In this document: in pieces, positions 228 to 19,745 of the stretch
Layout of the letters: the number at the start of each line of letters is the position of its first letter
Numbering within the stretch: position 1 is the stretch's first letter
NCBI GenBank assembly: GCA_040384705.1
Contig: JAZKIU010000001.1
Coordinates: 405,847 to 469,846 of the forward strand
Length of the DNA: 64,000 nucleotides
DNA from: Patescibacteria group bacterium
GTDB lineage: Bacteria; Patescibacteriota; Minisyncoccia; Phycocordibacterales; Phycocordibacteraceae
Direction: 5' to 3'
Position numbers and translations under genes: made by a program
Notes under the pieces: generated by a model
What the model was told of the DNA's origin: nothing
Databases searched by the model: none
Seen by the model: the letters and a program-made list of their open reading frames with translations, nothing else

Positions 228-255
228 GTTCCAACATCGTCCCAGACCCCCAGCA
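228..255 (+). repeat. cassette-boundary repeat copy A (cGTTCCAACATCGTCCCAGACCCCCAGCA)
   Basis: Direct sequence match to the family consensus. Followed by a hairpin terminator and the minus-strand alpha-CTD gene. Confidence 0.85.
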
Positions 256-303
256 CTGCTCACCTCCACTAGCGGAAGGGTGTTCGAACCTTTGTAAAAA
301 GTT

Positions 304-330
304 CACCCCGCATTATCCAAATGCGGGGTG
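304..330 (-). terminator. intrinsic terminator of the alpha-CTD-like gene
   Basis: 10-bp perfect stem (caccccgcat / atgcggggtg). It is followed on the minus strand by a T-run (rc of aaaaagtt). It lies just 3' of the stop of ORF 364..756. Confidence 0.6.
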
Positions 331-363
331 ATTAGTGGGATTGAATGTTGCAGAGGTATCGAA

Positions 364-756
364 CTAGCCGGTTCCTCCGACGACCTTCGGCTCGTAGGGA
401 AGTTCGCCGAGGTCATGGCCAATGCTGGCCAACACCTCTTTGACCTCCTGAATACCCTTACGTCCGAAGTTCGGAATTCGGAGCAAAGTCACCTCCGTCT
501 GGCGAACAAGATCACCAACGGTCTTGATGTTCTCGTTCTTGAGGCAGTTCTCAGTCCGAACAGACCATTCCAAATCGTTCAGGGGACGGTCGAGGTCGTC
601 GGTCTTTAGCGCCGGCACGTCTACCCCGCAGATCCCCATGAAGACGGAGAAGTCCTTGCCGTTGAGCTTGGACTTCACAAATGCAATAGCTTCGCAGCTG
701 CGGCACGGACGAAGTGGCGTGCAGCCCTCTTCGTGTTCACTAAACAGAGCGGTCAT
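364..756 (-). CDS. orphan RNA polymerase alpha-subunit C-terminal domain (alpha-CTD) protein with an N-terminal 4-Cys region
   Basis: The C-terminal 70 aa (DLEWSVRTENCLKNENIKTVGDLVRQTEVTLLRIPNFGRKGIQEVKEVLASIGHDLG) matches the canonical alpha-CTD (E. coli: [57 protein letters not shown]). The N-terminus has C12, C18, C21, C43. There is no alpha-NTD. Confidence 0.75.
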   Translation of the reverse strand: MTALFSEHEEGCTPLRPCRSCEAIAFVKSKLNGKDFSVFMGICGVDVPALKTDDLDRPLNDLEWSVRTENCLKNENIKTVGDLVRQTEVTLLRIPNFGRKGIQEVKEVLASIGHDLGELPYEPKVVGGTG

Positions 757-879
757 GAGATGTCCTCACATCATTGATGGGTTATAGGAACAAGGTTCTT
801 CGTACTAAATAAGCATATTAAATGGGATACGTCAAGTTTGCTACGTAAATAGCGTTCGGTCTTGTGTTGGAAATAGCTC

Positions 880-910
880 GGTTCCAACATCGTCCCAGAC
901 CCCCAGCAAT
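880..910 (+). repeat. cassette-boundary repeat copy B (GGTTCCAACATCGTCCCAGACCCCCAGCAAT)
   Basis: Exact consensus copy. It sits 34 bp upstream of ORF 944 and upstream of the divergent minus gene 364..756. Confidence 0.9.
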
Positions 911-943
911 TGAAGCCTATGGACAGGTGGTATTCTTTGTTCA

Positions 944-1495
944 ATGGAATGGCTCGCAAATTTCTTTGTAGGTATTGCGGTTTCGATTGGTAGCCTGTTT
1001 GGTGTAACCTCGACACAGGATGTCCCACCAGTACCTCCCGAAATTCAGGTTGAGGTAGAGACAACGTCCACACCAGAGCCTAAAACGAACGCAATGGTAA
1101 AAGCTCAAACATACCTGGAGACACCCACCTCTACCCAAAAAACTACTCCGACCTCGATACTTGACCCACTAATCGCAGCATCAATACAAAACAAGAAGGG
1201 CGATGATATCATTCCCGATTGTACTCACACCCCAGCCGCATGCGAGCTCAATGTGTCTAAGGAGGTTGCTCTGGAAAAAATCGCAGCCCTCAGAATTAGT
1301 AAGGGTGAGATGAAATCAGAATCAGTCGTGTTGAGGGGTGGCAGTCCCTGGGTGAGTCCTGGCGAGTGCTTCGGGAAAGGTGGCGAGCTCAATCAGTCTG
1401 GTTTTTTCTGGACTTACTGGGATATATGGGGGGTTACTCAGGTAAATGCTACGACCGGAGAGGCAGAGTTTTGTCAGCTCGAAGTGTCGTTTTAA
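944..1495 (+). CDS. hypothetical secreted protein (signal peptide, Thr/Pro-rich linker)
   Basis: ORF with a hydrophobic N-terminus (FFVGIAVSIGSLFGV). No known domain. Flanked by repeat copies B and C. Confidence 0.5.
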   Translation: MEWLANFFVGIAVSIGSLFGVTSTQDVPPVPPEIQVEVETTSTPEPKTNAMVKAQTYLETPTSTQKTTPTSILDPLIAASIQNKKGDDIIPDCTHTPAACELNVSKEVALEKIAALRISKGEMKSESVVLRGGSPWVSPGECFGKGGELNQSGFFWTYWDIWGVTQVNATTGEAEFCQLEVSF

Positions 1496-1505
1496 ATAGA
1501 CATTC

Positions 1506-1536
1506 GGTTCCAACATCGTCCCAGACCCCCAGCAAT
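1506..1536 (+). repeat. cassette-boundary repeat copy C
   Basis: Exact consensus, 10 bp after the stop of ORF 944..1495. Followed by the hairpin at 1541-1562. Confidence 0.9.
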
Positions 1537-1540
1537 TAAG

Positions 1541-1562
1541 AAGAGGCGGTTTCCCGCCTCTT
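1541..1562. terminator. hairpin (aagaggcgg tttc ccgcctctt) between convergent genes
   Basis: 9-bp perfect stem. Weak U-tracts on both strands. Lies between the 3' ends of 944..1495 (+) and 1573..1965 (-). Confidence 0.4.
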
Positions 1563-1572
1563 CGTCGCCGTA

Positions 1573-1965
1573 TCATGCAAACCCATGGAAGCGGACATCC
1601 ATGCCTAATCGAGGGGCCTCTCCTTCAGTCGGTATCCGAAGATGCTTTTGGAAGAGCTCCCGGAACTCCTCCGAAGGAACGAGCGGCGAGATGACATGCG
1701 CCGTCGTTGGAAGACACATCTCGCCGTGCACTGCCACTAAAGCGACTGTCCGGTCGCATGGACTGAAGATCTCGGCGCAACTAAGCAAGTTGTTGTAGCG
1801 CACCCTGAGCCACAACCCAGTCGCTTGCGATAAGTCGCCGGCGAGCGCCTCGAGGTTTTTCTGAAAGTGAGCAACGTACTTATCGCCACTCCCTGCCCAT
1901 GAGCACGTCATGTTGAGTAGATGCGCGACGAATCTGTCACGCGGCCGTTCGAGTGTCCTGAACAT
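1573..1965 (-). CDS. hypothetical protein (130 aa)
   Basis: ORF only. No recognisable motif. Confidence 0.35.
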   Translation of the reverse strand: MFRTLERPRDRFVAHLLNMTCSWAGSGDKYVAHFQKNLEALAGDLSQATGLWLRVRYNNLLSCAEIFSPCDRTVALVAVHGEMCLPTTAHVISPLVPSEEFRELFQKHLRIPTEGEAPRLGMDVRFHGFA

Positions 1966-2009
1966 ATCTGTCTCCGATCTGTGCCTCTAGACAGAAACCT
2001 AACATAGGT

Positions 2010-3065
2010 GTGTGGGGGCTCCAATATAGCCCGAGAATTCTTTCAGGCCCGGGCTTAAGCACAGCTTTGTGGTATAATCCGCAGCATATGGAAACCACAC
2101 CCGCTATGAATGGATCGAAGACGACTCCGAAGGATTTCTTCCTCTGGGCAGGGGCGATGGTAGCGCTCTATCTTTCCGTAATCTCGTTCATCACCCTCCT
2201 CTTCGAGTACATCAACTACACGTTCCCGGACCCTAACGCGTACGCTGGCGACCCGTACTCGAGCGCCATGCGCTTCGCGATGGCCGCGCTCATCGTGCTC
2301 GTGCCGACCACGCTCGTCCTCCTCCGTCTCATCCGGGGCACTATCATGCAGGATTCTGGCAAGGCAATGATCTGGGTGCGTCGCTGGGTCCTCCAGCTCA
2401 CGGTCTTCGTGATGACGGTCACCATCCTCATCGATCTCATCACGCTCGTGAACTACTTCCTCAATGGGGAAGTCACCACCCGCTTCATCCTGAAGATAGT
2501 CGTTGTCCTTCTCGTCGCCGGGTTCCTCTTCATGCACTTCCTTGCTGACCTCAAGGGGTACTGGATAAAGCACCCGAAGAAGGCCGACCTCATTGGCATA
2601 GCTTCCGCAGCAGTGGCCCTTGCCGCCATCGTCGCCGGCTTCTTCATCGTCGGCAGCCCGAGCGCCGCGCGCGACACACGCCTCGATATGCAGCGCGTGA
2701 ATGACCTCATGAGTATCCAAAGCCAGGTCGTGAGCTTCTACCAGCAGAAGGAGGAGCTTCCAGGAACGCTCGCTGAGCTTTCTGACCCGCTCTCGTACTT
2801 CACGCTTCCTAAGGACCCTAAGACCGGCATGGACTACACGTACGAGAAGACCGGTGCGCTCGCCTTCAAGCTTTGCGCTGGCTTCGCACGCGAAGGCAAG
2901 GATATGACGGGACGGGGCGGGTACGCAGGCGACATGGCGGTCTCCTATCCATACCCGGGTCCCGATGGCGGAATAGAGAACTGGAAGCATGGGGCGGGAA
3001 CGGTCTGCTTCGACCGCACCATCGACCCAGAGCGCTATCCTGTATTCGAGAAGCCGCTACGATAA
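2010..3065 (+). CDS. hypothetical polytopic membrane protein (start uncertain, possibly about 2089)
   Basis: Several hydrophobic helices in the N-terminal 220 aa and a soluble C-terminal domain. The opposite-strand ORF 2055..2990 is an Arg/Glu-rich shadow. Confidence 0.5.
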   Translation: MWGLQYSPRILSGPGLSTALWYNPQHMETTPAMNGSKTTPKDFFLWAGAMVALYLSVISFITLLFEYINYTFPDPNAYAGDPYSSAMRFAMAALIVLVPTTLVLLRLIRGTIMQDSGKAMIWVRRWVLQLTVFVMTVTILIDLITLVNYFLNGEVTTRFILKIVVVLLVAGFLFMHFLADLKGYWIKHPKKADLIGIASAAVALAAIVAGFFIVGSPSAARDTRLDMQRVNDLMSIQSQVVSFYQQKEELPGTLAELSDPLSYFTLPKDPKTGMDYTYEKTGALAFKLCAGFAREGKDMTGRGGYAGDMAVSYPYPGPDGGIENWKHGAGTVCFDRTIDPERYPVFEKPLR

Positions 3066-3091
3066 CCAGTGCGCGTTAATCGAGTACCATC

Positions 3092-5974: not shown

Positions 5975-5993
5975 GGGCCCGAACTATCCACAT

Positions 5994-6022: not shown

Positions 6023-6039
6023 AATACCACATTTACTAT

Positions 6040-7149
6040 ATGCCCAAGAAACCCGTAAGCCCGAAAAAGGCCGTAAAAGCCAAGGTATCCTCGTCCGCCT
6101 CAAAGGCGGTCGCGAAGCGTGCCTCCACCAAGCTATCCTTCGATAGCACGGTTCTCGTGAAGCGCCTCCTGGCCGAAGTGCCGGAGCGCGCCCGCGAAGT
6201 GCTCGTATATCGCTTCGGGCTGGGCGCGTCCGCCGAGCGTGAGACCCTCGAGGCCATCGGCGAACGCTGGGGCATCACCCGCGAGCGCGTCCGCCAGATA
6301 GAGGCGTCGGGCATCGAGGCTATCCGCAACTCCAAGTCCTTCCGCGAGTCCACCGGCTCGTTCGGCGAACTTTCTGCACACATCGAATCTCTAGGAGCTA
6401 TCGTCCCCGAGGACACCCTCCTCAAGGGCCTCGCATCAGATGAGAAGGCGAAGAACCGCTTCCGCTTCCTTCTCGTCGTGGGCTCGGAGTTCTTCCGCGA
6501 GCGCGAGACCGACGAGTTCTACGCGCGCTGGCACGTCGACCACGGCACCGCCGACCTGGTGCACACCGCGCTTACCCGCCTCTATACCGCACTCGATGAC
6601 GAGGAGGTCCTCTCCGAAGGGGAGATAATCAACAAGTTCCTCGACGAGCTCAAGGGCATCAACTCCGCATACCAGCAGGAGGAGATCCTCAAGCGCTGGC
6701 TCTCCATCTCGAAGACCATCGGTGCTAACCCGCTTTCAGAGTGGGGCAAGGCGAACGCGCCCGCTATCCGCACCAAGGGCATCCGCGACTACGCGTACCT
6801 CGTCATCAAGCAGCGCGGCGAGCCTATGCACTTCGCTGATGTTGCCAAGGCCATCGTCGAGGTATTCGGCAAGAAGGCGCACGTCGCTACCACCCACAAC
6901 GAGCTCATCAAGGACTCCCGCTTCGTCCTCGTGGGCCGTGGTCTCTACGCGCTCGCTGAATGGGGCTTCTCACCGGGCGTAGTCCGCGATGTCGTCCGCG
7001 ACGTGCTCAAGAAGAAGCCGCTCACCCGCGATGAGGTCATCACCGAGGTGAAGAAGGTCCGCTACGTGAAGGACAACACCATCCTCGTGAACCTCAACGA
7101 TTCCAAATACTTCAAGCGGCAGAAGGACGGGAAATACACCGCCGTCTAA
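6040..7149 (+). CDS. transcription factor: Lys-rich histone-H1-like tail + sigma-70 region 4 HTH + C-terminal HARE-HTH-like domain
   Basis: The N-terminus is PKKPVSPKKAVKAKV. ETLEAIGERWGITRERVRQIEASGIEAIRN matches the sigma70 r4.2 signature. The C-terminal segment MHFADVAKAIVEVFG...FVLVGRGLYALAEWGF resembles HARE-HTH (RpoE-delta-like). Confidence 0.6.
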   Translation: MPKKPVSPKKAVKAKVSSSASKAVAKRASTKLSFDSTVLVKRLLAEVPERAREVLVYRFGLGASAERETLEAIGERWGITRERVRQIEASGIEAIRNSKSFRESTGSFGELSAHIESLGAIVPEDTLLKGLASDEKAKNRFRFLLVVGSEFFRERETDEFYARWHVDHGTADLVHTALTRLYTALDDEEVLSEGEIINKFLDELKGINSAYQQEEILKRWLSISKTIGANPLSEWGKANAPAIRTKGIRDYAYLVIKQRGEPMHFADVAKAIVEVFGKKAHVATTHNELIKDSRFVLVGRGLYALAEWGFSPGVVRDVVRDVLKKKPLTRDEVITEVKKVRYVKDNTILVNLNDSKYFKRQKDGKYTAV

Positions 7150-7154
7150 GCACC

Positions 7155-7180: not shown

Positions 7181-7208
7181 ACTCTCGAGCTCTTGCTATA
7201 CTTCTTCC

Positions 7209-11988: not shown

Positions 11989-12056
11989 GATTTGTGCCTC
12001 CCCGTGCGCTTCCTAATATATTTCGTATCATTAGTAGGTATGCGTGTCAAAACACT

Positions 12057-12725
12057 ATGAGTGTGCAGATAGAGGCTTCGTGGAGGAAAAATCTCGAAGA
12101 AGAGTTCGGCAAGGACTATTTCAATGAGCTCACCGCCTTCGTAAAGAAGGAATATGCGGAAGGTACGGTGTACCCGCACCCGAAGAACATCTTCAAGGCG
12201 TTCGAGCTCACTCCTTTCGATAAGGTAAAAGTGGTCATTCTCGGCCAAGACCCATATCACGGGCAAGGACAGGCAATAGGGCTATCGTTCGCAGTGAAGG
12301 AGGGGGTGCGCAACCCTCCATCGCTCCAGAACATATTCAAGGAGATAGAGGCGGATCTAGGACAGAAGCCTCATGTCGAGAACGGTGACCTCACCCGCTG
12401 GGCGGAGCAGGGCGTACTCCTCCTTAACGCAACGCTTACGGTGCGCGGAGGCATCGCTGGCTCGCATCAAGGGCGTGGGTGGGAATTGTTCACCGATGCA
12501 GTCATCAAGACGCTCTCGGACGAGCGTGAGCATCTGGTTTTCATACTCTGGGGCAACTATGCGAAGCAGAAGGGGGCGCACATAGACCGCAGCAAGCATC
12601 TCGTCATCGAGTCGGCGCATCCGTCGCCATTCTCGGCAGCTAATGGGTTCTTCGGGAGCAGGCCGTTCACCAGGGCGAATGGGTACCTTGAGTCTCAGGG
12701 TGAGAAGGCGATAGATTGGCGATAG
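12057..12725 (+). CDS. ung: uracil-DNA glycosylase (family 1)
   Basis: Carries the GQDPYH water-activating motif and the HPSPFS leucine-loop motif. Length about 222 aa. The TAG stop at 12723-12725 is the first 3 nt of the anchor repeat. Confidence 0.9.
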   Translation: MSVQIEASWRKNLEEEFGKDYFNELTAFVKKEYAEGTVYPHPKNIFKAFELTPFDKVKVVILGQDPYHGQGQAIGLSFAVKEGVRNPPSLQNIFKEIEADLGQKPHVENGDLTRWAEQGVLLLNATLTVRGGIAGSHQGRGWELFTDAVIKTLSDEREHLVFILWGNYAKQKGAHIDRSKHLVIESAHPSPFSAANGFFGSRPFTRANGYLESQGEKAIDWR

Positions 12726-12750
12726 GTTCGATACCTAGTCTGCCAGCAAT
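12723..12750 (+). repeat. anchor repeat 1 (TAGGTTCGATACCTAGTCTGCCAGCAAT), diverged member of the cassette-boundary family
   Basis: Its first 25 nt are identical to 18659-18683. It shares GGTTC...CCAGCAAT(A)AAA ends with the 30-bp family. It overlaps the ung stop codon. Confidence 0.8.
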
Positions 12751-12783
12751 ATAAAAATCTAGCCCCGCTATTGGATAGCAGGG

Positions 12784-13032
12784 CTAGGGAATAACGATGC
12801 AATCAAAGGTACCGCAGAGTTGGCACTTCTCGCAGACTAGGTAGCTATACGCTTCAGGCTGATCTCCTGTTAATCGCCACTGCCAGAAGATTCCTCCGCA
12901 ACGCCGGTGTTCGCGTCGGAGTCGCACCCACCACGAACGATCGCCATCAAAGTAGTTGCACAGACCCAATTCAACAACGTCGTCGGCTGAAGGGTCCCAT
13001 CGAGTGGAATCAGGCATTCGATCCTCCTTCAA
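12784..13032 (-). CDS. hypothetical Cys-rich small protein (82 aa, putative zinc ribbon)
   Basis: CNYF...C..C...CEKCQLCGTFDC pattern. Lies between the anchor and repeat copy D. Confidence 0.3.
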   Translation of the reverse strand: MKEDRMPDSTRWDPSADDVVELGLCNYFDGDRSWWVRLRREHRRCGGIFWQWRLTGDQPEAYSYLVCEKCQLCGTFDCIVIP

Positions 13033-13063
13033 TCCGGTTAGAGGCTAGCATGCTATGAAGTCT

Positions 13064-13094
13064 GTCTCCAACATCGTCCCAGACCTCCAGCAAT
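13064..13094 (+). repeat. cassette-boundary repeat copy D (GTCTCCAACATCGTCCCAGACCTCCAGCAAT)
   Basis: 29/31 match to consensus. 29 bp beyond the 5' end of the minus gene 12784..13032. Confidence 0.85.
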
Positions 13095-13104
13095 AAAATA
13101 GTCA

Positions 13105-13129
13105 GCCCCGCATCATCGTTGTGCGGGGC
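13105..13129 (-). terminator. intrinsic terminator of 13144..13551
   Basis: gccccgca / tgcggggc stem. On the minus strand it is followed by a T-rich run (rc of caataaaatagtc). Confidence 0.55.
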
Positions 13130-13143
13130 GTTGTCAAGCGTGC

Positions 13144-13551
13144 TCACCTAAGTGCGGCCTTAATTTTCTTCAGCCACGTCGGGCTGTTGTGCTTACTAAG
13201 TTTGTGAGAGCAACCATTTCGGAGAAGTAGCTTCTCCATACGATCATCCGTGGTCGCTGCAAACATCGGACCAGTAAAGCCGGCGGTCCTGAAGTCCGCA
13301 ACGATCTTTTCCGTCGTTGGCTCAGGATCTGTCGAAGACAGATTTCCATCGAAGATTATGGCCACGATGCTTTGGCGATTCGTCTTGAAATAATGCCGAG
13401 CTGCCCTGGAGCAGTCAGCAAAAATCACATCGAACTCTTCGCCCAGAACCTCTCGATACTTGTTCAACTGAAAGGAACTGTCCTCAATAGCAAGGATTGA
13501 ATCCATAGAACCCTCCAATGTTCTTTCGAGACAACTATACCATGTATCCAA
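13144..13551 (-). CDS. response-regulator receiver-domain-like protein (stand-alone, 135 aa)
   Basis: ILAIEDS...DVIFADC...IVAIIFDGNL...K pattern is compatible with a CheY-like fold. No output domain. Confidence 0.45.
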   Translation of the reverse strand: MDTWYSCLERTLEGSMDSILAIEDSSFQLNKYREVLGEEFDVIFADCSRAARHYFKTNRQSIVAIIFDGNLSSTDPEPTTEKIVADFRTAGFTGPMFAATTDDRMEKLLLRNGCSHKLSKHNSPTWLKKIKAALR

Positions 13552-13580
13552 TTTTTGTCAGTCTCATGCTCGAGATCAGA

Positions 13581-13611
13581 GTTCCAACATCGCCCCAGAC
13601 CCCCAGCTAAT
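13581..13611 (+). repeat. cassette-boundary repeat copy E (GTTCCAACATCGCCCCAGACCCCCAGCTAAT)
   Basis: Near-consensus. 28 bp from the 5' end of the minus gene 13144..13551. Confidence 0.85.
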
Positions 13612-13726: not shown

Positions 13727-14221
13727 ATGCGTCAGGTAGTCGTAATCGCTGCACTGTCACTGCTGGCCGCTGCTTGCGGCGACGACCCAAGTTCGAAATC
13801 TCCAGCTCCACAGTCGGGAGCTGAACTGCTCGACATCAGTCTGCCGCGCACACCAGCGGCTGATGCCAAAGAGAACGATGCTGTTGCTGAACTTCAGATT
13901 CGGATCGGCACGAGCTACCAAGGCACCACCTACAGCTGTCAGTACGTCGACGAGGGTGTCGCCCTGCTGCGCGGTAGGGACGGTACGCTGTACCGCATCA
14001 AGAGTACCGAATTCGAGCGCTTCGGCAAAAGTTCCCGTCGCTACAAGAGCTACACGCTCGAGCCCTGGTGGGGAAGCGACACTGAACTCAGACTGTCGAC
14101 CGAGGAAACGGATGCGCTGCGGTGGAACAACTTCACCGGCGTGCTATGTCCCGAGGATGGCGAAAAATACGATCGCGCATGGCGGACCTACCGCTTCCGA
14201 GATCTCAATCGCCTCCCGTAA
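13727..14221 (+). CDS. hypothetical lipoprotein (164 aa)
   Basis: Signal peptide with a lipobox (LLAAACGDD). Confidence 0.5.
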   Translation: MRQVVVIAALSLLAAACGDDPSSKSPAPQSGAELLDISLPRTPAADAKENDAVAELQIRIGTSYQGTTYSCQYVDEGVALLRGRDGTLYRIKSTEFERFGKSSRRYKSYTLEPWWGSDTELRLSTEETDALRWNNFTGVLCPEDGEKYDRAWRTYRFRDLNRLP

Positions 14222-14239
14222 CTCATCGTCTTTTCGACT

Positions 14240-14274
14240 GGGCGCCGCACAATCTGCGGCGCCCCTCTTTTATT
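14240..14274 (+). terminator. intrinsic terminator after lipoprotein gene
   Basis: gggcgccgca caatc tgcggcgccc followed by ctcttttatt. Confidence 0.65.
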
Positions 14275-14309
14275 AGGGGAGACTCATGGAGAGTAAGTCA
14301 CACTAGCCC

Positions 14310-14339
14310 GGTCCAATCTCGCCCCAGGCCCCCAGCTAA
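14310..14339 (+). repeat. cassette-boundary repeat copy F (degenerate: GGTCCAATCTCGCCCCAGGCCCCCAGCTAA)
   Basis: About 22/30 match. Same position logic as other copies (between cassettes). Confidence 0.6.
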
Positions 14340-14385
14340 CTTTAGGCGGTTCTGGGTAGCGCTGGTACTGGGTTCACGTGTCGGC

Positions 14386-16377
14386 TTACCACACCATCTC
14401 GCGGTCCTTCGGCGCACGGTACATCTTATCGCTCTTCTTAACCTCATATGCCTCATAGAAGGCATCGAAGTTCGAGACCGGGCCATTGATGCGGAACTTG
14501 CCCGGAGCATGCGGGTCTGTGAGTACCTGCATCTTCTCGTATTCTGGGCGCACATTCTCGCGCTCGAAGAGGGCGAAGCCAAGGAAGAAGCGCTGCTCCG
14601 GTGTATACCCGCCGACATCCTTGCGGCCCGTGCGTGCGAGCTGGAGCTGGTACGCGTCGTATGCGATAGAGATGCCTCCGAGGTCAGCGATATTCTCGCC
14701 TAGAGTGAGCTTGCCGTTCACTTTCACGCCGTCGGCCACGACATACTTATCGAACTGCTTGCGTACCTTCTCGGCCTTCGCTTCGAAGCGCTTGCGGTCA
14801 GTCGCGGTCCACCAGCTCTTCAGGTTGCCCTTGGCGTCGTATTGCGAACCCTCGTCATCGAATCCGTGGGTTATCTCATGCCCTATGACTGTGCCTATCG
14901 CGCCATAATTAAGGGCATCATCCGCGGACATATCGAAGAAGGGAGCCTGGAGGATTCCAGCGGGGAACACTATGTCGTTCAGGTTCGGCGAGAAGTATGC
15001 ATTCACGGTCTGCGGATACATGTGCCACTCCGTTCGGTCGATGGGTCCATTGAGCTTCTTTATCTCCCGCTTATGCTCGAACTCGTTTGAGCGCAGTACA
15101 TTTCCTACATAGTCATCGCTCGTTATCGCGAGACCTTTGTACGATTTCCATTTGTCCGGGTACCCTATCTTGCGATTGAGCGCAGCAAGCTTCTTGAGCG
15201 CCTTCTTCTTCGTGGGAGGCGTCATCCAATCGAGGGACTTGAGCCTCGCTTCGTATGCGGTGAAGAGATCCTCTACCAAGATGCCCATCTTCTTCTTTGC
15301 CTCCGCAGGAAAATACTTCTTTACATAGATCTGGCCCAGAAGCTCTCCTACATGCCCGTTGACGTTCCCCAGCACGCGCCTCCAGAGCGGCTTCATCTGC
15401 TTCGTGCCGGTGAGCGCGGTTCCGTAGAAGGAGAAGCTCTGCTTCACGAATGCGTTCGAGAGAAGGCCGGCGAAATCATTCACCAGGTGCCATTCCGTAT
15501 ACGTCTTGAGGTCTTCAAGAGCTGCGCTAGCAAGGAGTTTCGATACTGCCTTCAGGAAGTCCGGCTGCATGACTATCACCTCCTTCACCTCCGCGCCTTG
15601 CTGAGTGAAATACCGCTTCCAATCGAGTTCGGGCGAGAGCTTCATGAGCCCTGCTACGGTCATCTTGTGATAGGTCTTCTCGGGATCTCGGCGGTCCTCT
15701 TTCTTCATGGAAGCCTTCGCGAGCGCTGTCTCTACGCGCATGAGCGTTTCCGTCGCGGCTTTCGCTTCAGCTGGTGTGCGGCCCATAAGACGGAACAATG
15801 CCGCGGCATGCTTTAGGTATGCGGAACGTACCCGCACCGACTCCGCATCATCCTTCAAATAGTAGTCCCGGTCAGGCATGCCGAGCCCATCCTGCGCCAT
15901 GTGCAAGATATACCGCTCGCTGTTCTTCGAGTCCTGGCCGATTCCCGAGCCGAAGAATACGCCTACACCGATGCGATGCAGCTCTCCGATAAGGCCCTTG
16001 AGCGCCGTTGTGTCCTTCGCATTCGTTATCTTCTTGCGGAGCGCGTCCAGGGGCTTTATGCCGAGTTCGTTCCGGCGCTTCATATCCATGCCGGAGCGCT
16101 GGAAGTCCCGGATTATCTGCTCCGGGCTACCCTTGGGAAGCGAGCGCTTGCTCTCGAGCTCAGTGAGGATGTCCCGGAGCTGGTGATCGGTCTTGTAGCG
16201 AAGCTCATTGAATGAGCCCCATCTCGATTCTGCAGGTGGAATGGGATGCGCCTTCATCCATCCCCCGTTCGCATGATGGAAGAAGTCATCCTGCGGACGA
16301 ACCTTCATATCCATACCTTTCGTATCGAACCCCCATCCTTTTTTAGTCATATCAGCGATTATATCCGAATTGAGCAC
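14386..16377 (-). CDS. pepO: M13 family zinc metalloendopeptidase (PepO/neprilysin-like)
   Basis: 663 aa. HEITHGFDD (HExxH), GENIADLGG and NAYY motifs typical of peptidase M13. Confidence 0.9.
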   Translation of the reverse strand: MLNSDIIADMTKKGWGFDTKGMDMKVRPQDDFFHHANGGWMKAHPIPPAESRWGSFNELRYKTDHQLRDILTELESKRSLPKGSPEQIIRDFQRSGMDMKRRNELGIKPLDALRKKITNAKDTTALKGLIGELHRIGVGVFFGSGIGQDSKNSERYILHMAQDGLGMPDRDYYLKDDAESVRVRSAYLKHAAALFRLMGRTPAEAKAATETLMRVETALAKASMKKEDRRDPEKTYHKMTVAGLMKLSPELDWKRYFTQQGAEVKEVIVMQPDFLKAVSKLLASAALEDLKTYTEWHLVNDFAGLLSNAFVKQSFSFYGTALTGTKQMKPLWRRVLGNVNGHVGELLGQIYVKKYFPAEAKKKMGILVEDLFTAYEARLKSLDWMTPPTKKKALKKLAALNRKIGYPDKWKSYKGLAITSDDYVGNVLRSNEFEHKREIKKLNGPIDRTEWHMYPQTVNAYFSPNLNDIVFPAGILQAPFFDMSADDALNYGAIGTVIGHEITHGFDDEGSQYDAKGNLKSWWTATDRKRFEAKAEKVRKQFDKYVVADGVKVNGKLTLGENIADLGGISIAYDAYQLQLARTGRKDVGGYTPEQRFFLGFALFERENVRPEYEKMQVLTDPHAPGKFRINGPVSNFDAFYEAYEVKKSDKMYRAPKDREMVW

Positions 16378-16424
16378 GGCAACCTACCGGGATTATTGAC
16401 AGACTACAAATAGTATGTATACTC

Positions 16425-16676: not shown

Positions 16677-16711
16677 GTCCCGAAGGAGTCCCTCCGCTCG
16701 GGGCTTCTTCA

Positions 16712-16730
16712 TATCACTGCGTCTGTGATA
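16712..16730 (+). promoter_or_regulatory. palindrome TATCAC-N7-GTGATA immediately upstream of alaS start
   Basis: Perfect 6-bp inverted arms ending 12 bp before the alaS ATG. AlaRS is known to autoregulate via palindromic operators in E. coli. Confidence 0.3.
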
Positions 16731-16741
16731 TCTTCATATTT

Positions 16742-18661
16742 ATGACCGTTTCAGAAGTACGCAAGCGTTTCCTCGACTTCTATGCCGCTCGCGGGCATAC
16801 CGTCATCCCTTCTGCCCCTATCGTGCCCGGGAACGACCCGACCACGCTCTTCACGTCGTCCGGCATGCAGCCGCTCGTTCCGTACCTGCTCGGAAAGGAC
16901 CATCCGTCAGGTAACCGGCTGGTGAACTCGCAGATGAGCTTCCGTGCGGGCGATATAGAAGAAGTGGGGGATAACCGTCACACGACGTTCTTCGAGATGC
17001 TCGGGAACTGGTCGCTTGGCGACTATTTCAAGGCAGAGCAGCTTCCGTGGGTGTTCGAATACCTCACGAGCGAAAGCGAAGGCCTCGGCCTCGATCCCTC
17101 AAAGCTGTATGTCACGGTATTCGCGGGCGACGAGACGACGAAGATGGATGCGGACATGGAGGCAGTCGGCATATGGACCGAACTGTTCAAGAGCAAGGGC
17201 GTCCATGCGGAGTTCGCGAACATCGGCTCGGAAGCGGATGGATACGAGCATGGCATGAACGGCAACGAGCGCATCTTCGCGTATGACGCCAAGAAGAACT
17301 GGTGGAGCCGTGCGGGCGTGCCTTCCAATATGCCAGTGGGTGAGCCGGGCGGCCCCGATTCCGAGGTCTTCTATGACTTCGGCCTTCCGCATGACACGAA
17401 GTGGGGTCCTAAGTGCCACCCGAACTGCGATTGCGGCCGGTTCGTCGAGATAGGGAACTCGGTGTTCATGCAGTTCGTGAAGAGCGAGGATGGTAGCTTC
17501 CCCGAGCTCCCCAAGCGCAACGTCGACTTCGGCGGAGGTCTCGAGCGTCTTACCTTCGCAACCATCGGTATACCCGACGCCTTTCTTATAGACGTGTTCG
17601 CTGCTCCTCTTTCAATACTTGAGACGCGTTCAGGAAAGAAGTATGGAGATGATGAAGCGACTACCCGTGCCTTCCGCATCATCCTCGACCACATGCGCGC
17701 TGCAGCGTTCATGCTCGCGGAGAGCGTCGTTCCTTCGAACACCGAAGCGGGGTATGTGCTTCGCCGTCTCATCCGCCGCTCGATACGCGAAGCGGATAGG
17801 CTCGGCATCAAGGATGCGGTGCTTGCTGATGTGGCTAAGGGATACGGCGAGGTTTACGCCGACCACTATCCGCACGTGCTCGCGGCAGCTAGCAAGATCC
17901 ACGATGAGCTCGCGCAAGAGGAGGAACGTTTCCGTAAGACCCTTACGCAGGGGCTCAAGGAATTCGAGAAGCTCGCCGGCAAGCGCGAAGTGAGCGCCGA
18001 CGATGCCTTCGTCCTCTTTACTACCTACGGCTTCCCCATAGAGCTCACCGCGGAGCTTGCGCAGGAACGCGGTATCGCGCTCGATATGGATGCGGTCGGA
18101 GCGAAGATGAAAGAGCACCAGGATACCTCACGCGCAGGAGGCGCGCAGCGCTTCGCAGGAGGCCTAGCTGATCATGCGGAACAGACGGTGCGGTATCACA
18201 CGACGCACCACATCCTCCTTAAGGCGCTCCAGATGGTGCTCGGGACGGAGGTGAAGCAGAGGGGCTCCAATATCACTTCGGAGCGGTTGCGCATCGACTT
18301 CGCGTCGCCCGGGAAGATGACGGACGAGCAGAAGGCGGAAGTAGAGAAGATTGTGAACGACATCATCTATCAGGACCTTCCGGTGTCGCGCACCACGATG
18401 GCACGAGAGGAGGCGGAGAAGCTCGGTGCAGAGATGGAATTCGGCGTGAAGTATCCGGATATGGTGACGGTGTATTCAGTTGGACCGGCCACTGCTACTG
18501 AGGAGAACCCTGATATCCCGAACGCATTCTCGCTCGAGTTCTGCGGCGGTCCGCATGTGAACAATACGAGCGAGATACACGAAGGAGGAAAGAAGTTCAA
18601 GATACAGAAGGAAGAGGCGGTGGCGGCTGGTATTCGCCGTATAAAGGCGGTGTTGGTGTAG
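16742..18661 (+). CDS. alaS: alanyl-tRNA synthetase, short form lacking C-terminal C-Ala/DHHA1 domain
   Basis: Class II catalytic core and editing domain (HxxxH...CGGPH) present. Ends at GIRRIKAVLV, which corresponds to about residue 700 of E. coli AlaRS. The TAG stop at 18659-18661 is the first 3 nt of anchor repeat 2. Confidence 0.85.
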   Translation: MTVSEVRKRFLDFYAARGHTVIPSAPIVPGNDPTTLFTSSGMQPLVPYLLGKDHPSGNRLVNSQMSFRAGDIEEVGDNRHTTFFEMLGNWSLGDYFKAEQLPWVFEYLTSESEGLGLDPSKLYVTVFAGDETTKMDADMEAVGIWTELFKSKGVHAEFANIGSEADGYEHGMNGNERIFAYDAKKNWWSRAGVPSNMPVGEPGGPDSEVFYDFGLPHDTKWGPKCHPNCDCGRFVEIGNSVFMQFVKSEDGSFPELPKRNVDFGGGLERLTFATIGIPDAFLIDVFAAPLSILETRSGKKYGDDEATTRAFRIILDHMRAAAFMLAESVVPSNTEAGYVLRRLIRRSIREADRLGIKDAVLADVAKGYGEVYADHYPHVLAAASKIHDELAQEEERFRKTLTQGLKEFEKLAGKREVSADDAFVLFTTYGFPIELTAELAQERGIALDMDAVGAKMKEHQDTSRAGGAQRFAGGLADHAEQTVRYHTTHHILLKALQMVLGTEVKQRGSNITSERLRIDFASPGKMTDEQKAEVEKIVNDIIYQDLPVSRTTMAREEAEKLGAEMEFGVKYPDMVTVYSVGPATATEENPDIPNAFSLEFCGGPHVNNTSEIHEGGKKFKIQKEEAVAAGIRRIKAVLV

Positions 18662-18687
18662 GTTCGATACCTAGTCTGCCAGCCAAT
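18659..18687 (+). repeat. anchor repeat 2 (TAGGTTCGATACCTAGTCTGCCAGCCAAT)
   Basis: First 25 nt identical to 12723-12747. Overlaps the alaS stop codon. Upstream similarity extends about 8 more nt (TTGGYG.TAGG). Confidence 0.8.
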
Positions 18688-18910
18688 CAAAGTATGCAAA
18701 AAAAAGGCCGCTCACTGCCTTTCCAACCACGCTTACCACGGGTCAGTCGGCATAAAATCGGGCGTTGAGTACAAGAGACGATGCGCGCAAACGCCTCCCC
18801 GATGTGAGCGACCTAGAGCAAACTCCTTGCTTTGAAACCGAAGTCTCGCACTACGGACCCTGCTCCAAGGGTACCGGGAGCTGCATAAAGACTAGCCTAG
18901 TTCTAAAGAA

Positions 18911-18938
18911 GTTCCAACATCGTCTCAAACCCCAGTAA
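18911..18938 (+). repeat. cassette-boundary repeat copy G (GTTCCAACATCGTCTCAAACCCCAGTAAT)
   Basis: About 24/29 match to consensus. Confidence 0.7.
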
Positions 18939-18949
18939 TAAAACAAAAA

Positions 18950-18986
18950 GCCGCCCAACAAAGTCAGGCGACTTTCGTTAGGCGGC
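18950..18986 (-). terminator. long imperfect hairpin + T-run, terminator of minus small genes
   Basis: gccgcc caacaaagtc aggc gactttcgtt aggcggc. On the minus strand it is followed by ctttttgtttt. Confidence 0.5.
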
Positions 18987-18996
18987 AGGCTATTGT

Positions 18997-19197
18997 CTAG
19001 TTACCGCGATCGGGCTTCGTTCGCCAATCATCCTGATGGCGTGACATTTCGGCCGTGCGTTCACCGTGTCGTCTGCGCTGTTCATAGGAATCGTTGATTG
19101 TGTGATCGAACGCACCTTGTCGCGACATTTCCGCCATCTGTTCGCCGGCATGCTGTCTTGCGCGACGATCTTCTTCATCTCTCCAGTGTCGAGGCAT
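18997..19197 (-). CDS. hypothetical small highly charged protein (66 aa; alternative overlapping frame 18990..19178)
   Basis: Repeated AEMSR motif. Two overlapping frames, so which is real is unclear. Confidence 0.25.
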   Translation of the reverse strand: MPRHWRDEEDRRARQHAGEQMAEMSRQGAFDHTINDSYEQRRRHGERTAEMSRHQDDWRTKPDRGN

Positions 19198-19251
19198 TAC
19201 GTTTCTCCTTCGGGGTTCGAGTCTGGACAGAACCTATCACGATTGGATAAG

Positions 19252-19279
19252 GGTTCCAACATCGTCCCAGCCCCCAGTC
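19252..19279 (+). repeat. cassette-boundary repeat copy H (GGTTCCAACATCGTCCCAGCCCCCAGTCA)
   Basis: About 25/28 match. Followed by hairpin agccg..cggct + gtttt. Confidence 0.8.
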
Positions 19280-19296
19280 ACGCTCAGACAAAAAGA

Positions 19297-19320
19297 AGCC
19301 GCCCTGAGGACGGCTGTTTT
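19297..19320. terminator. hairpin with U-tracts on both strands (bidirectional terminator)
   Basis: agccg ccctgagga cggct gtttt on the plus strand. The minus strand has tctttttgtct after the stem. It lies 3' of minus gene 19340..19669. Confidence 0.5.
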
Positions 19321-19339
19321 GATCACGAGGGATCGAGTA

Positions 19340-19669
19340 TCAGGGCGGACTGAGGTGGGATTTCTCCCGGTAGTAGCGGGCCAGGGAAACTCCCTTCCAT
19401 CCGTACGGCGTGTAGCCGAGGAGATCGCCGATGGGGTAGTAGTGAAGGCTGCCGACGGGATAATCCACAAGGTAGGACTCTATTCCTTCCATGCAGTGCT
19501 CGACGATGTACCACACCCACCAGACGCGAACGACTTTGCCGTCGCGCTCGCCGAGAGCCCTGGGCATCCAGGCGAATTCATAGTTCTTGCCTCGTTCCAG
19601 CGGTTCGGCTGGGCGAGAGGGACGTATATTAATCTTCATCGTCACACTTCCTTTGTTCGATACCGCCAC
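19340..19669 (-). CDS. hypothetical protein (about 100 aa)
   Basis: ORF only. Confidence 0.35.
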   Translation of the reverse strand: MAVSNKGSVTMKINIRPSRPAEPLERGKNYEFAWMPRALGERDGKVVRVWWVWYIVEHCMEGIESYLVDYPVGSLHYYPIGDLLGYTPYGWKGVSLARYYREKSHLSPP

Positions 19670-19714
19670 GTCCTGTGGCAGAACTCTAGACAGAAGCTAG
19701 CATATGTTGCAGGG

Positions 19715-19745
19715 GGGTTCCAACATAGTCCCAAACTATCCACCA
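19715..19745 (+). repeat. cassette-boundary repeat copy I (degenerate: GGTTCCAACATAGTCCCAAACTATCCACCAT)
   Basis: First 20 nt near-consensus, 3' half diverged. 43 bp upstream of ORF 19788. Confidence 0.6.

What the first reader, a model, noticed from the sequence alone, without database searches (positions are those of the whole stretch)
228..19745. Novel 25-31 bp direct-repeat family delimiting small gene cassettes (integron-like or hotspot array without a visible integrase)
There are eleven same-orientation copies of a GGTTCCAACATCGTCCCAGACCCCCAGCAAT-like element. Core copies start at 228, 880, 1506, 13064, 13581, 14310, 18911, 19252 and 19715. Two diverged anchor copies start at 12723 and 18659. 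Each interval between copies holds exactly one small gene, in either orientation. Most cassettes also carry their own hairpin terminator. The genes are an orphan alpha-CTD protein, a secreted protein, a receiver-like protein, a lipoprotein, an M13 peptidase, small charged proteins and a YbaN-like protein. The repeat always faces the same way regardless of gene strand, so it is unlikely to be a promoter or an RNA element. It behaves like a recombination or cassette-boundary site such as attC or the target of a site-specific recombinase. It is not palindromic and does not match dif, attC R-box, REP/BIME or CRISPR architecture. Two cassette arrays (12.7-16.4 kb and 18.7-20.1 kb) each begin at an anchor copy fused to the stop codon of a conserved gene.
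Basis: seen in the sequence. Interest (0 to 1): 0.88.

Follow-up and report, generated by a model that had tools for sequence, protein, structure and literature searches.

The report
Gene-cassette arrays bounded by recombinase sites
The 31-base repeat that separates small orphan genes in this Patescibacteria (candidate phyla radiation) genome is most likely the attachment half-site of a large serine recombinase that mimics the 3' end of tRNA-Gln, which would make these loci integron-like gene-collecting arrays built by a different enzyme.

Summary
There are nine same-strand core copies and two identical anchors at the stated coordinates, plus one degenerate copy at about 2014. None occur in the other 44 kb of the window.

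The core is sharply bounded at about 34 nt. It recurs in about 25 Patescibacteria MAGs and always forms co-oriented arrays of roughly 300-1500 bp single-gene cassettes with unrelated, mostly orphan cargo. Relatives keep the same flanks (ung, alaS, a DUF5671 gene) but carry entirely different cassettes.

Nearly every array starts at an anchor. The anchor is either a real tRNA-Gln 3' end or an isolated fragment of one, often overlapping the stop codon of a conserved gene.

The core equals that tRNA 3' segment with 5 nt inserted after the T-loop motif. This matches the published attP-versus-attB half-site geometry of large serine recombinases (LSRs).

Seven independently fetched LSR elements of 3.7-6.6 kb, most also carrying a Rep gene, have their LSR end at a tRNA or an anchor and end distally with this core.

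Best reading: the arrays come from serial LSR integration. No recombinase is visible in the window, and whether single cassettes move in trans is unproven. I rate this a new variant of a known kind.

The parts
227..257 (+). Core copy 1 (P-type site), CGTTCCAACATCGTCCCAGACCCCCAGCACT
303..756 (-). Cassette: orphan RNA polymerase alpha-CTD protein gene (364-756) with its terminator hairpin (303-331). Homologous cassettes with the same geometry occur in L036 and L126.
880..910 (+). Core copy 2, exact consensus
944..1495 (+). Cassette gene, 183 aa, N-terminal hydrophobic segment, no Pfam hit
1506..1536 (+). Core copy 3, exact consensus
1540..1965 (-). Cassette gene, 130 aa (1573-1965), with hairpin 1540-1562. 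Its promoter module lies at about 1984-2013.
2014..2041 (+). Degenerate terminal core (GGGGGCTCCAATATAGCCCGAGA), the last site of array 1, directly before the conserved DUF5671 gene
12723..12750 (+). Anchor 1 (B-type site): the tRNA-Gln 3'-end-like sequence TAGGTTCGATACCTAGTCTGCCAGCAAT. Its TAG is the UDG stop codon. It is conserved after UDG in L018.
12759..13032 (-). Cassette gene, 82 aa (12784-13032), plus terminator 12759-12787
13064..13094 (+). Core copy 4
13100..13551 (-). Cassette gene, 135 aa (13144-13551), plus hairpin; sigma-70-like promoter at 13534-13561
13580..13611 (+). Core copy 5
13727..14264 (+). Cassette gene, 164 aa, with a lipobox-like N-terminus (13727-14221), plus terminator 14240-14264
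14309..14340 (+). Core copy 6, the most diverged (71% identity). It is the last detectable site of array 2.
14386..16377 (-). M13 peptidase gene. It is variable (absent from the syntenic L037 locus), so it is probably distal cargo of array 2.
18659..18687 (+). Anchor 2 (B-type site), TAGGTTCGATACCTAGTCTGCCAGCCAAT. Its TAG is the AlaRS stop codon. It is conserved after AlaRS in L006 and L037 and absent from 80 more distant AlaRS loci.
18910..18937 (+). Core copy 7
18946..19178 (-). Cassette gene, 62 aa, charged (18990-19178), plus terminator 18946-18976
19252..19281 (+). Core copy 8
19297..19669 (-). Cassette gene, about 99-109 aa (19340-19669; likely ATG at 19639), plus terminator 19297-19315
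19715..19745 (+). Core copy 9, the terminal site of array 3. The left (P) part is conserved and the right part has diverged (attR-like).
19788..20078 (+). DUF454/YbaN-like small membrane protein gene distal to the last core. The Pfam hit is below the gathering score.
11994..12725 (+). Conserved flank: uracil-DNA glycosylase family gene. Orthologues in L018 are 79% identical and in L037 69% identical.
16742..18661 (+). Conserved flank: alanyl-tRNA synthetase. Orthologues in L006 are 91% identical and in L037 78% identical.

Best explanation
The repeat is a site-specific recombination site of a large serine recombinase (LSR) family that targets the 3' end of tRNA genes in Patescibacteria.

The anchor, (TA)GGTTCGAWNCCYAG-TCTSCCA-G-CAAT, is the B-type (attB-like) half-site. 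It is the T-loop, the T-stem 3' strand, the acceptor 3' strand and the discriminator of tRNA-Gln, present either as a real tRNA-Gln gene or as an isolated fragment.

The core, RRGTTCCAA-CATCG-TCCCAG-ACCCCCA-G-CAAT, is the P-type (attP-like) half-site. It is the same sequence with 5 bp inserted between the outer GTTCSAA motif and the inner acceptor-like part. By analogy with the Listeria phage integrase, the outer motif would be bound by the zinc-ribbon domain and the inner part by the recombinase domain. The crossover would then lie at or near the CA of CCAGC, at the right edge of the conserved block.

Incoming DNA carrying a P-type site integrates at the anchor and pushes older insertions distally. 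Each insertion leaves a P-type core on its far side. This gives the order anchor, newest cassette, core, older cassette, core, and so on, with all sites co-oriented and the last one decaying.

The autonomous elements are 3.7-6.6 kb units carrying the LSR gene, most with a Rep gene beside it. The window holds only recombinase-less, single-gene cassettes, each with its own promoter and terminator.

Shown: the site anatomy, the array architecture, cassette turnover between conserved flanks, the 5-bp relation, and the physical association with LSR elements in other genomes.

Inferred: that the LSR acts on these sites, the crossover position, and whether the small cassettes are mobilised in trans or are streamlined leftovers.
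For: 1. The site is sharply bounded. It is a block of about 34 nt (-6 to +27) conserved in 106 unique sites from about 25 Patescibacteria genomes, with no conservation on either flank.
2. It forms no single-strand hairpin: minimum free energy is 0 kcal/mol.
3. It has no Rfam or tRNA hit.
4. Sites are co-oriented within each array, but the longest ORF is on the same strand in 20 cassettes and the opposite strand in 29.
5. Cassettes are 291-2874 bp with a median near 500 bp, and their contents are unrelated. Only 3 of 32 cargo proteins hit Pfam.
6. The same flanks carry different cassettes: L018/L021, L037 and L006 compared with the window.
7. An alpha-CTD cassette recurs with identical geometry but different neighbours in the window, L036 and L126.
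8. Arrays begin at tRNA-Gln in L004, L005, L015, L027, L033 and L036. They begin at isolated tRNA-Gln-like anchors in at least 15 other arrays.
9. Global alignments of 10 anchor-or-tRNA versus core pairs place a single 5-nt gap after GTTCSAA in 8 of them. This includes a tRNA-Ser-targeting element.
10. Rutherford et al. 2013 (PMC3783163) show that the zinc-ribbon-domain motif sits 5 bp closer to the centre in attB than in attP, and that a half-site is 25 bp.
11. L033 has an LSR (Resolvase, Recombinase and Zn_ribbon_recom domains) and a Rep gene between tRNA-Gln and a core.
12. LSR homologues were fetched by protein identity alone (L120-L125). All six have their 3' end at a tRNA-Gln, a tRNA-Ser, an anchor or a core, and all have a P-type site 3.7-6.6 kb away on the tRNA strand.
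13. The motif GYTCCAANNTNGTC occurs 15 times in 127 kb of LSR loci, always on that strand, against once in 969 kb of control loci.
14. Anchor tails (TCTGCCAG or TCTCCCAG) are never exchanged for core tails (CCCCCAG). This fits a crossover to the right of them.
Against: - No LSR or any other recombinase was found in the 64 kb window among the ORFs scanned.
- None recurs within 8 kb of the arrays in 119 ORFs from L001-L037, apart from L033 and a distant LSR in L032.
- Cassette cores have no conserved second half-site on the right. Canonical LSR sites are bound by a dimer on two half-sites.
- Canonical LSRs do not recombine attL with attP, so serial integration at the anchor needs a non-canonical rule.
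- No circular or attP form of an element was found.
- There is no strain-level presence/absence polymorphism with breakpoints at the site. The closest relative has 91% AlaRS identity.
- LSR chemistry does not explain how B-type anchors came to lie at the stop codons of alaS, ung and ychF.
- No LSR gene remnants are found in the cassettes.
Confidence: 0.65

Rival explanations
1. Graveyard model. The sites are LSR attR scars, but the small cassettes never move on their own. Each is the streamlined remnant of a full element of about 5 kb carrying the LSR and replication genes, which integrated at the anchor and then lost those genes by deletion. The arrays are fossil stacks rather than an active cassette system.
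For: - Full elements sit at the head of arrays in L033 and L120, with single-gene cassettes distal to them.
- Terminal cores are degenerate.
- Cassette cores lack a second half-site.
- Tycheposon islands show the same pushing and decay.
Against: - About 50 cassettes contain no LSR or Rep remnants at all.
- Cassettes are compact transcription units: one ORF covers 60-95% of the length and has its own promoter and terminator.
- The internal cores remain almost invariant over about 100 copies, which suggests continued selection.
- The alpha-CTD cassette keeps its boundaries in three genomes with different neighbours.
Confidence: 0.2
2. A different recombinase, such as a tyrosine recombinase encoded elsewhere in the genome, uses the tRNA-Gln-like sites. 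The LSR elements merely share the popular tRNA-Gln landing site.
For: - No recombinase is adjacent to most arrays.
- tRNA 3' ends are classic targets of tyrosine integrases.
- L124 carries a Phage_integrase gene inside the element.
Against: - The core has no inverted-repeat core-type binding sites around an overlap region.
- The 5-bp P-versus-B offset is specific to LSR site geometry.
- The P-type motif also ends an LSR element that targets tRNA-Ser. There its inner part matches tRNA-Ser rather than tRNA-Gln.
- The motif is about 100-fold enriched in LSR loci.
Confidence: 0.1
3. The repeat is not a recombination site. It is a regulatory or structural intergenic repeat, such as a promoter or UP element, an insulator, a REP-like element or a DNA-uptake sequence, which happens to accumulate in variable regions.
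For: - In about 14 copies the core abuts a conserved minus-strand promoter-like module of the form TGnTAGGnT.
- The core always lies between genes.
Against: - Its orientation is independent of gene strand.
- It is not palindromic and not structured.
- It is absent from 44 kb of housekeeping genes in the window and from 969 kb of related contigs.
- It is derived from the tRNA-Gln 3' end with a fixed 5-nt insertion, and it ends LSR elements.
Confidence: 0.04

Closest known systems
Large serine recombinase (serine integrase) attP/attB/attL/attR sites, e.g. Listeria phage A118 LI integrase, Bxb1, phiC31
   Same: - The half-site is about 25 bp, ending at a central crossover.
- The outer motif lies 5 bp further from the centre in the P-type site than in the B-type site.
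- An LSR gene with Resolvase, Recombinase and Zn-ribbon domains lies next to the site in the autonomous elements.
   Different: - Only one half-site is conserved in the cassette cores.
- Sites are stacked in long tandem arrays, which canonical attP x attB directionality does not predict.
- The target is a tRNA 3' end or an isolated fragment of one.
SCCmec, psi-SCC and SCC composite islands (Ccr large serine recombinases at the 3' end of rlmH/orfX); Enterococcus cassette chromosome
   Same: - The elements are driven by a serine recombinase.
- They insert at the extreme 3' end of a conserved gene.
- They form tandem arrays in which recombinase-less modules are separated by short direct repeats of the attachment sequence.
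   Different: - The cassettes here are single genes of about 0.3-1.5 kb rather than elements of 10-60 kb.
- There are many anchors per genome, behind alaS, ung, ychF and tRNA-Gln.
- The site mimics a tRNA.
- Homology of the LSR to Ccr was not tested.
Tycheposons and tRNA-linked genomic islands of Prochlorococcus (bioRxiv 10.1101/2020.12.28.424599)
   Same: - Elements integrate at tRNA genes.
- Newcomers push older elements into the island.
- Partial tRNAs are scattered through the island.
- Elements pair an integrase module with a replication module and carry cargo.
- A streamlined genome with few other routes of gene exchange builds its flexible gene pool this way.
   Different: - Tycheposons use mostly tyrosine recombinases.
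- Their repeats are plain partial tRNAs, not a distinct P-type variant with 5 extra bases.
- They do not form regular single-gene cassette arrays.
Integrons (IntI, attI, attC cassette arrays)
   Same: - One privileged entry site (anchor, like attI) is followed by co-oriented cassette-boundary sites (core, like attC).
- Cassettes are single genes of a few hundred bp.
- Cargo is overwhelmingly of unknown function.
- Cassette content turns over completely between close relatives.
   Different: - There is no IntI tyrosine recombinase.
- The core is unstructured and conserved in sequence, whereas attC is conserved in structure as a folded single strand.
- Cassettes have their own promoters and terminators and lie in both orientations.
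- There is no Pc promoter.

Membership tests
Integron | IntI-type tyrosine recombinase next to the array | tested here: not met
   No Phage_integrase hit among the window ORFs scanned. None is recurrent among 119 ORFs flanking arrays in L001-L037. Not every window ORF was scanned.
Integron | attC: an imperfect palindrome that folds as a single strand, conserved in structure rather than sequence | tested here: not met
   Both strands of the core fold at 0 to -0.7 kcal/mol, no better than shuffles. The sequence is nearly invariant over 106 sites.
Integron | Mostly promoterless cassettes, co-oriented and expressed from Pc | tested here: not met
   The longest ORF is on the same strand as the site in 20 cassettes and the opposite strand in 29. 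Cassettes have their own promoter-like sites and terminators.
Large serine recombinase att sites | LSR gene (Resolvase, Recombinase and Zn-ribbon domains) adjacent to the att site of the autonomous element | tested here: met
   This was met in related loci, not in the window. L033 shows it. L120-L125 and L189 have the LSR 3' end at a tRNA-Gln, a tRNA-Ser, an anchor or a core.
Large serine recombinase att sites | The P-type half-site equals the B-type half-site with the outer (zinc-ribbon-domain) motif shifted 5 bp away from the centre | tested here: met
   8 of 10 unbiased global alignments place one 5-nt gap after GTTCSAA. The rule is taken from PMC3783163.
Large serine recombinase att sites | Two half-sites (pseudo-palindrome) flanking a central dinucleotide | tested here: not met
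   There is no conservation right of about +28 in 106 sites, and no inverted copy of the outer motif. The LSR-proximal arms of autonomous elements do share a GnnTTTTG motif, but that stretch may be coding sequence.
Large serine recombinase att sites | The enzyme recombines the sites | not testable with these tools
   This needs in vitro or in vivo recombination assays.
tRNA-targeting integrative elements / genomic islands | Integration at a tRNA 3' end, with the element flanked by the tRNA and a direct-repeat copy of its 3' part | tested here: met
   Arrays start at tRNA-Gln in L004, L005, L015, L027, L033 and L036. The core tail co-varies with the local tRNA or anchor acceptor sequence.
REP / BIME / MITE intergenic repeats | Palindromic units, or elements with terminal inverted repeats, scattered between core genes | tested here: not met
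   The core is not palindromic. It is confined to three variable clusters in the window. It is absent from 969 kb of related contigs.
CRISPR array | Regularly spaced repeats separated by short non-coding spacers | tested here: not met
   Spacing is 291-2874 bp, and each interval holds a gene.
Known RNA families (Rfam) / tRNA genes | Match to a curated covariance model, or a tRNA call | tested here: not met
   In the window the only hit is tRNA-Tyr at 46991, and nothing lies at the repeats. In the loci no hit overlaps a core.

The most novel reading that the evidence does not exclude
This would be a serine-recombinase analogue of the integron. Only the left half-site carries the P or B identity, so any B-type anchor could recombine reversibly with any P-type core without a directionality factor. 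Single-gene cassettes that carry their own promoters would be captured, stacked and released in trans by LSRs supplied by small mobile elements carrying the LSR and a Rep gene. Several such platforms, seeded behind tRNA-Gln and behind the stop codons of housekeeping genes, would make this a main engine of the flexible genome in streamlined Patescibacteria.
Probability: 0.3. Interest if true: 0.85.

Novelty: new variant of a known kind. Interest (0 to 1): 0.66.

Why it matters
Patescibacteria have tiny genomes and few recognised routes of gene exchange. How they acquire and turn over accessory genes is poorly understood.

These arrays appear to be a dedicated, widespread landing system. One MAG of roughly 1 Mb has at least 6 arrays and at least 22 sites. 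They collect orphan genes at defined sites behind essential genes and tRNA-Gln.

If the LSR link is correct, three things follow:
- It gives a natural example of LSR sites used iteratively, like an integron.
- It provides a naturally paired attB/attP half-site set that displays the 5-bp rule across many lineages.
- It offers a simple sequence tag, RRGTTCCAACATCGTCC, for finding the flexible genome of these organisms in metagenomes.

It also supplies candidate compact serine integrases with defined tRNA-derived sites for testing.

Tried and rejected
- **Promoter or RNA element.** Rejected because site orientation is independent of gene strand, there is no Rfam hit and there is no structure. A conserved promoter-like module does sit beside some cores, but it lies outside the conserved site.
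- **Part of a larger RNA or tRNA gene.** Rejected. ARAGORN and Rfam find nothing at the sites, and the flanks are unrelated.
- **Integron attC, REP/MITE, CRISPR.** Rejected; see the membership tests.
- **dif/Xer site.** Rejected by inspection, since there are no inverted arms.
- **IS200/IS605-like ends.** Considered and dropped. There is only one conserved block per boundary, and the hairpins next to it are diverse terminators.
- **Exact-protein look-ups.** Look-ups for UDG, AlaRS and two alpha-CTD proteins found nothing on record. I therefore could not extend the window or fetch the 640 kb source contig.
- **Metagenome scan with AlaRS.** It returned only relatives at 68% identity or less, all without sites. 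This is useful as a negative control but gave no strain-level comparison.
- **Searches for a free (attP) form of the elements.**
  - The 21-mer pattern in viral contigs gave one chance-like hit.
  - A 16-mer gave 59 hits with no LSR nearby. About 35 of them are a C5-methyltransferase coding motif.
  - LSR profile scans of viral contigs found only integrated copies next to tRNAs.
- **Literature.** Full-text searches for the sequence, and for Patescibacteria or CPR with serine recombinase, found no description of these arrays.
- **Third 'anchor-like' copy.** The match at 58276 lies inside a coding region and is a chance match.

Full report
**1. The observation**

The 31-mer GGTTCCAACATCGTCCCAGACCCCCAGCAAT occurs with up to 3 mismatches four times on the + strand, against 0.00 expected from shuffles. 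Repeat finding and an nhmmer profile recover nine + strand copies, at 227, 880, 1506, 13064, 13580, 14309, 18910, 19252 and 19715, with E-values from 2e-10 to 2e-5. A weak tenth copy lies at about 2014-2041. Nothing is found in 20-64 kb.

Two identical 25-mers, TAGGTTCGATACCTAGTCTGCCAGC, lie at 12723 and 18659. Their TAG is the stop codon of a UDG-family gene (11994-12725) and of AlaRS (16742-18661).

Between the sites lie single small ORFs on either strand:
- an orphan RNA polymerase alpha-CTD protein (364-756);
- an M13 peptidase (14386-16377);
- a weak DUF454 hit (19788-20078);
- several ORFs without any Pfam hit.

Strong terminator-like hairpins follow five of these genes, and two more are seen by eye. 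The three clusters have lower G+C (0.52-0.55) than their surroundings (0.57-0.60). The small exceptions are that 18688-18909 has no convincing gene and that the interval after 14340 holds a large gene plus another small ORF.

**2. Where else the site occurs**

Pfam content places the window in Patescibacteria/CPR: DUF5671, a short AlaRS, and a LeuRS with a NUDIX insert.

An exact-pattern scan of one genome per species found 37 loci. Almost all are Patescibacteria MAGs (Parcubacteria/Paceibacterota, Kaiserbacteria, Amesbacteria, and MAGs labelled Saccharibacteria). Several have 2-8 copies within 8 kb.

The copies are sharply bounded and their flanks are unrelated. In 106 unique sites, information content is high from -6 to +27 relative to the G of GTTCC and is nil outside that range. 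Positions 0-19 were used to select the sites, so only the flanks are unbiased.

No Rfam family and no tRNA call overlaps a site. Neither strand folds.

The motif is not a general feature of the group. Eighty contigs encoding AlaRS at 45-68% identity, 969 kb in all, contain no core and no anchor.

**3. Cassette behaviour**

Consecutive co-oriented sites define 53 intervals of 291-2874 bp, with a median near 500 bp. Each holds essentially one ORF covering 60-95% of its length. The ORF is on the same strand as the site in 20 cases and on the opposite strand in 29. Cassette contents are unrelated to one another, and only 3 of 32 cargo proteins hit Pfam.

Three relatives share the window's conserved flanks:
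- L018/L021 has Mrr-PDDEXK-UDG (UDG 79% identical) and the DUF5671 gene.
- L037 has Mrr-PDDEXK-UDG (UDG 69% identical) and AlaRS (78% identical).
- L006 has AlaRS (91% identical).

None of the window's cassette genes is present at those loci. At 91% AlaRS identity the array behind alaS has been completely replaced.

Conversely, an alpha-CTD cassette is found in three genomes with the same geometry: core, terminator, antisense gene, core. The copies are window 228-911, L036 670-1330 and L126 5915-6490. The neighbours differ in each case, and in L036 the cassette lies next to tRNA-Gln. This is the behaviour of discrete, exchangeable cassettes.

**4. The anchor is the 3' end of tRNA-Gln**

In six loci the array starts directly after a real tRNA-Gln gene on the same strand: L004, L005, L015, L027, L033 and L036.

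In at least 15 other arrays, including both in the window, the first cassette is preceded by an isolated copy of GGTTCGAWNCCYAGTCTSCCAGCAAT. This sequence is the T-loop, the T-stem 3' strand, the acceptor 3' strand and the discriminator of tRNA-Gln.

The same anchor follows AlaRS in the window, L006 and L037, and follows UDG in the window and L018. More distant AlaRS genes end ...AVLE-TAA without it.

In at least ten isolated anchors a long same-strand ORF ends at a TAG inside the anchor or within 5 nt of it. These genes include alaS, ung, ychF in L021, and one gene shared by L003 and L034.

**5. The core is the anchor plus five bases, and it ends serine-recombinase elements**

Global alignment of ten tRNA-or-anchor versus core pairs places one 5-nt gap (CATCG, GATCG, TATCG or CTTTG) immediately after GTTCSAA in eight of them. 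The inner part of the core follows the local tRNA or anchor. For example, in L120 the anchor is AGTTCCAA-----TCCAGGTGCGCCAGCCA and the core is AGTTCCAACATCGTCCAGGTGCGCCAGCAAC.

L033 provided the lead. Between its tRNA-Gln and a single core lies a 5.3 kb island. It encodes a large serine recombinase (Resolvase, Recombinase and Zn_ribbon_recom domains) and a rolling-circle Rep protein. The LSR 3' end overlaps the tRNA in antisense.

Homologues of this LSR are common in CPR bacteria. Contexts fetched by protein identity alone gave the same picture every time:
- The LSR 3' end abuts tRNA-Gln in L123, L124, L125 and L189.
- It abuts tRNA-Ser in L119 and L122.
- It abuts a tRNA-Gln-like anchor behind a sortase gene in L120.
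- It abuts a core-type site in L121.
- A P-type site lies 3.7-6.6 kb away on the tRNA strand in L120-L125. In L120 it is followed by four more single-gene cassettes.

In L122 the element targets tRNA-Ser. There the inner part of the core matches tRNA-Ser, while the outer motif and the 5-nt insertion are kept.

The motif GYTCCAANNTNGTC occurs 15 times in 127 kb of these LSR loci, always on that strand. It occurs once in the 969 kb control set.

**6. How this fits known LSR biology**

Rutherford et al. 2013 (PMC3783163) studied the Listeria phage integrase. They showed that the C-terminal domains contact a 25-bp half-site. [quoted passage not shown]

Reading the core in the same way gives the following layout:
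- the outer motif GGTTCCAAC would occupy positions 24-16;
- ATCGTCCCAGACCCC would occupy positions 15-1;
- the crossover would fall at or near the CA of CCAGC.

This agrees with three independent observations:
- The right boundary of conservation lies a few bases further on.
- Anchor tails (TCTGCCAG or TCTCCCAG) are never replaced by core tails (CCCCCAG).
- Terminal cores keep the left part and diverge on the right, as at 19715.

The crossover position is an inference from geometry, not a measurement.

**7. Proposed mechanism**

DNA carrying a P-type site integrates at a B-type anchor, and older insertions are displaced distally. The result is an anchor followed by alternating cassettes and P-type cores, all co-oriented.

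The autonomous elements carry the LSR gene, and most carry a Rep gene beside it. They may be related to the CPR inoviruses reported by Roux et al. 2019. That link is not tested here.

The window contains only recombinase-less cassettes. Whether these are mobilised in trans or are streamlined leftovers is open.
- For independent mobility: there are no LSR or Rep remnants in about 50 cassettes, the internal cores are nearly invariant, and the alpha-CTD cassette recurs as a unit.
- Against: the cassette cores have no conserved second half-site, and canonical LSRs do not recombine attL with attP.
- A possible way out is that only the left half-site encodes P or B identity. Then attL would behave as attB and attR as attP, making integration at the anchor repeatable and reversible. 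This is speculation.

**8. What remains unexplained**

- LSR chemistry does not move a B half-site, yet near-identical anchors sit at the stop codons of several housekeeping genes. One idea is that decayed tRNA-Gln copies were trimmed by deletion until the upstream stop codon overlapped the half-site, which remained under selection. I could not test this.
- I found no free attP form of the elements.
- I found no strain-level polymorphism.
- I found no recombinase in the window.

**9. Comparison with known systems, and novelty**

The system works like an integron but fails every defining integron feature that I could test. The site anatomy matches LSR att sites except for the missing second half-site. 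The closest biological analogues are:
- SCCmec/psi-SCC composite islands, where a serine recombinase acts at the 3' end of a conserved gene and recombinase-less modules are separated by direct repeats;
- tycheposon islands, with tRNA targets, newcomers pushing older elements inward, and scattered partial tRNAs.

Full-text searches found no description of these arrays or of this sequence. The library searched is incomplete.

I classify it as a new variant of a known kind: tandem LSR-type attachment sites that organise single-gene cassettes at tRNA-Gln-derived landing pads in Patescibacteria.

My confidence that it is a tRNA-Gln-derived recombination site is about 0.9. My confidence that the enzyme is this LSR family is about 0.65-0.7. 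My confidence that single cassettes move in trans is about 0.3-0.4.

Noticed in passing
window 19683-19714, 19220-19251, 13033-13063, 1984-2013; also L003, L006, L011, L012, L016, L018, L021, L028, L029: About 14 cores are preceded by a conserved module of about 32 nt, TCTAGACAGAACCTAACATAnnTTGCATAAGG. On the minus strand it reads as an extended -10 promoter (TGnTAGGnT) with a conserved start region, TCTGTCYAGA. It drives the antisense cassette gene. It lies outside the recombinase half-site, and I do not know why it is conserved across genomes.
   Followed up: partly
L130-L188 (IMG/VR contigs), e.g. L132 13401-13416, L139 6147-6162: About 35 high-GC viral contigs carry the identical 21-mer GGTTCCAACATCGTCCCAGAC inside a C5 DNA methyltransferase gene. 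The antisense strand encodes ...PIWDDVGTFDG..., between the methyltransferase motifs CSGIG and GFPCQPFS. This is probably coincidence (rough p of about 0.02). It shows that exact-pattern hits outside Patescibacteria, such as L023, L035 and L038, need not be the same element.
   Followed up: partly
L033 4194-5705; L119, L122-L125, L189; more distant relatives L191-L199: In this LSR clade the gene's 3' end overlaps, or lies 40-90 nt from, the 3' end of a tRNA gene in antisense. The tRNAs are Gln, Ser, Ala, Gly, Thr and Pro. In several cases the last roughly 20 codons of the ORF are read from the antisense of the tRNA. The attP site therefore lies at or within the end of the recombinase gene.
   Followed up: partly
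window 3092-5974: The leucyl-tRNA synthetase carries a NUDIX domain hit (residues 418-523) between the editing domain and the rest of the catalytic core.
   Followed up: no
window 34000-42000: This is a second low-G+C stretch (0.48-0.52) without any core or anchor. It encodes a PrnB-like protein (34509-35630), a GHMP-kinase-like protein (35634-36716) and a histidine kinase (41166-42800). It may be another acquired region of a different kind.
   Followed up: no
window 6040-7149: This gene combines a Sigma70 region 4 domain with a HARE-HTH domain, an unusual small transcription-factor architecture. It lies between leuS and the next genes.
   Followed up: no
L004 7090-7917; L120 6829-7320; L027 (oriented) 2773-3033; L005 (oriented) 2280-2699: Recognisable cargo in or next to arrays in other genomes includes a reverse transcriptase, a ThsB-like TIR protein, an HNH endonuclease, a HIT-family protein and a 5-hmdU DNA kinase domain. 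This hints at defence or nucleic-acid-related functions among the otherwise orphan cassettes.
   Followed up: no
window 364-756, and proteins P0122 and P0125: P0122 is 99% identical to the window's alpha-CTD protein. P0125 is a paralogue at 68% identity. Both lie on the same 640,007 bp NCBI Patescibacteria contig, which is probably the source genome. That genome would therefore hold at least two alpha-CTD cassettes.
   Followed up: partly
L125 (reverse strand) just upstream of tRNA-Gln 5175-5246: A partial duplicate of the 5' part of tRNA-Gln (TGTCGAGTCGTCTAACGGTA...) lies about 130 nt upstream of the intact gene, next to an LSR element.
   Followed up: no
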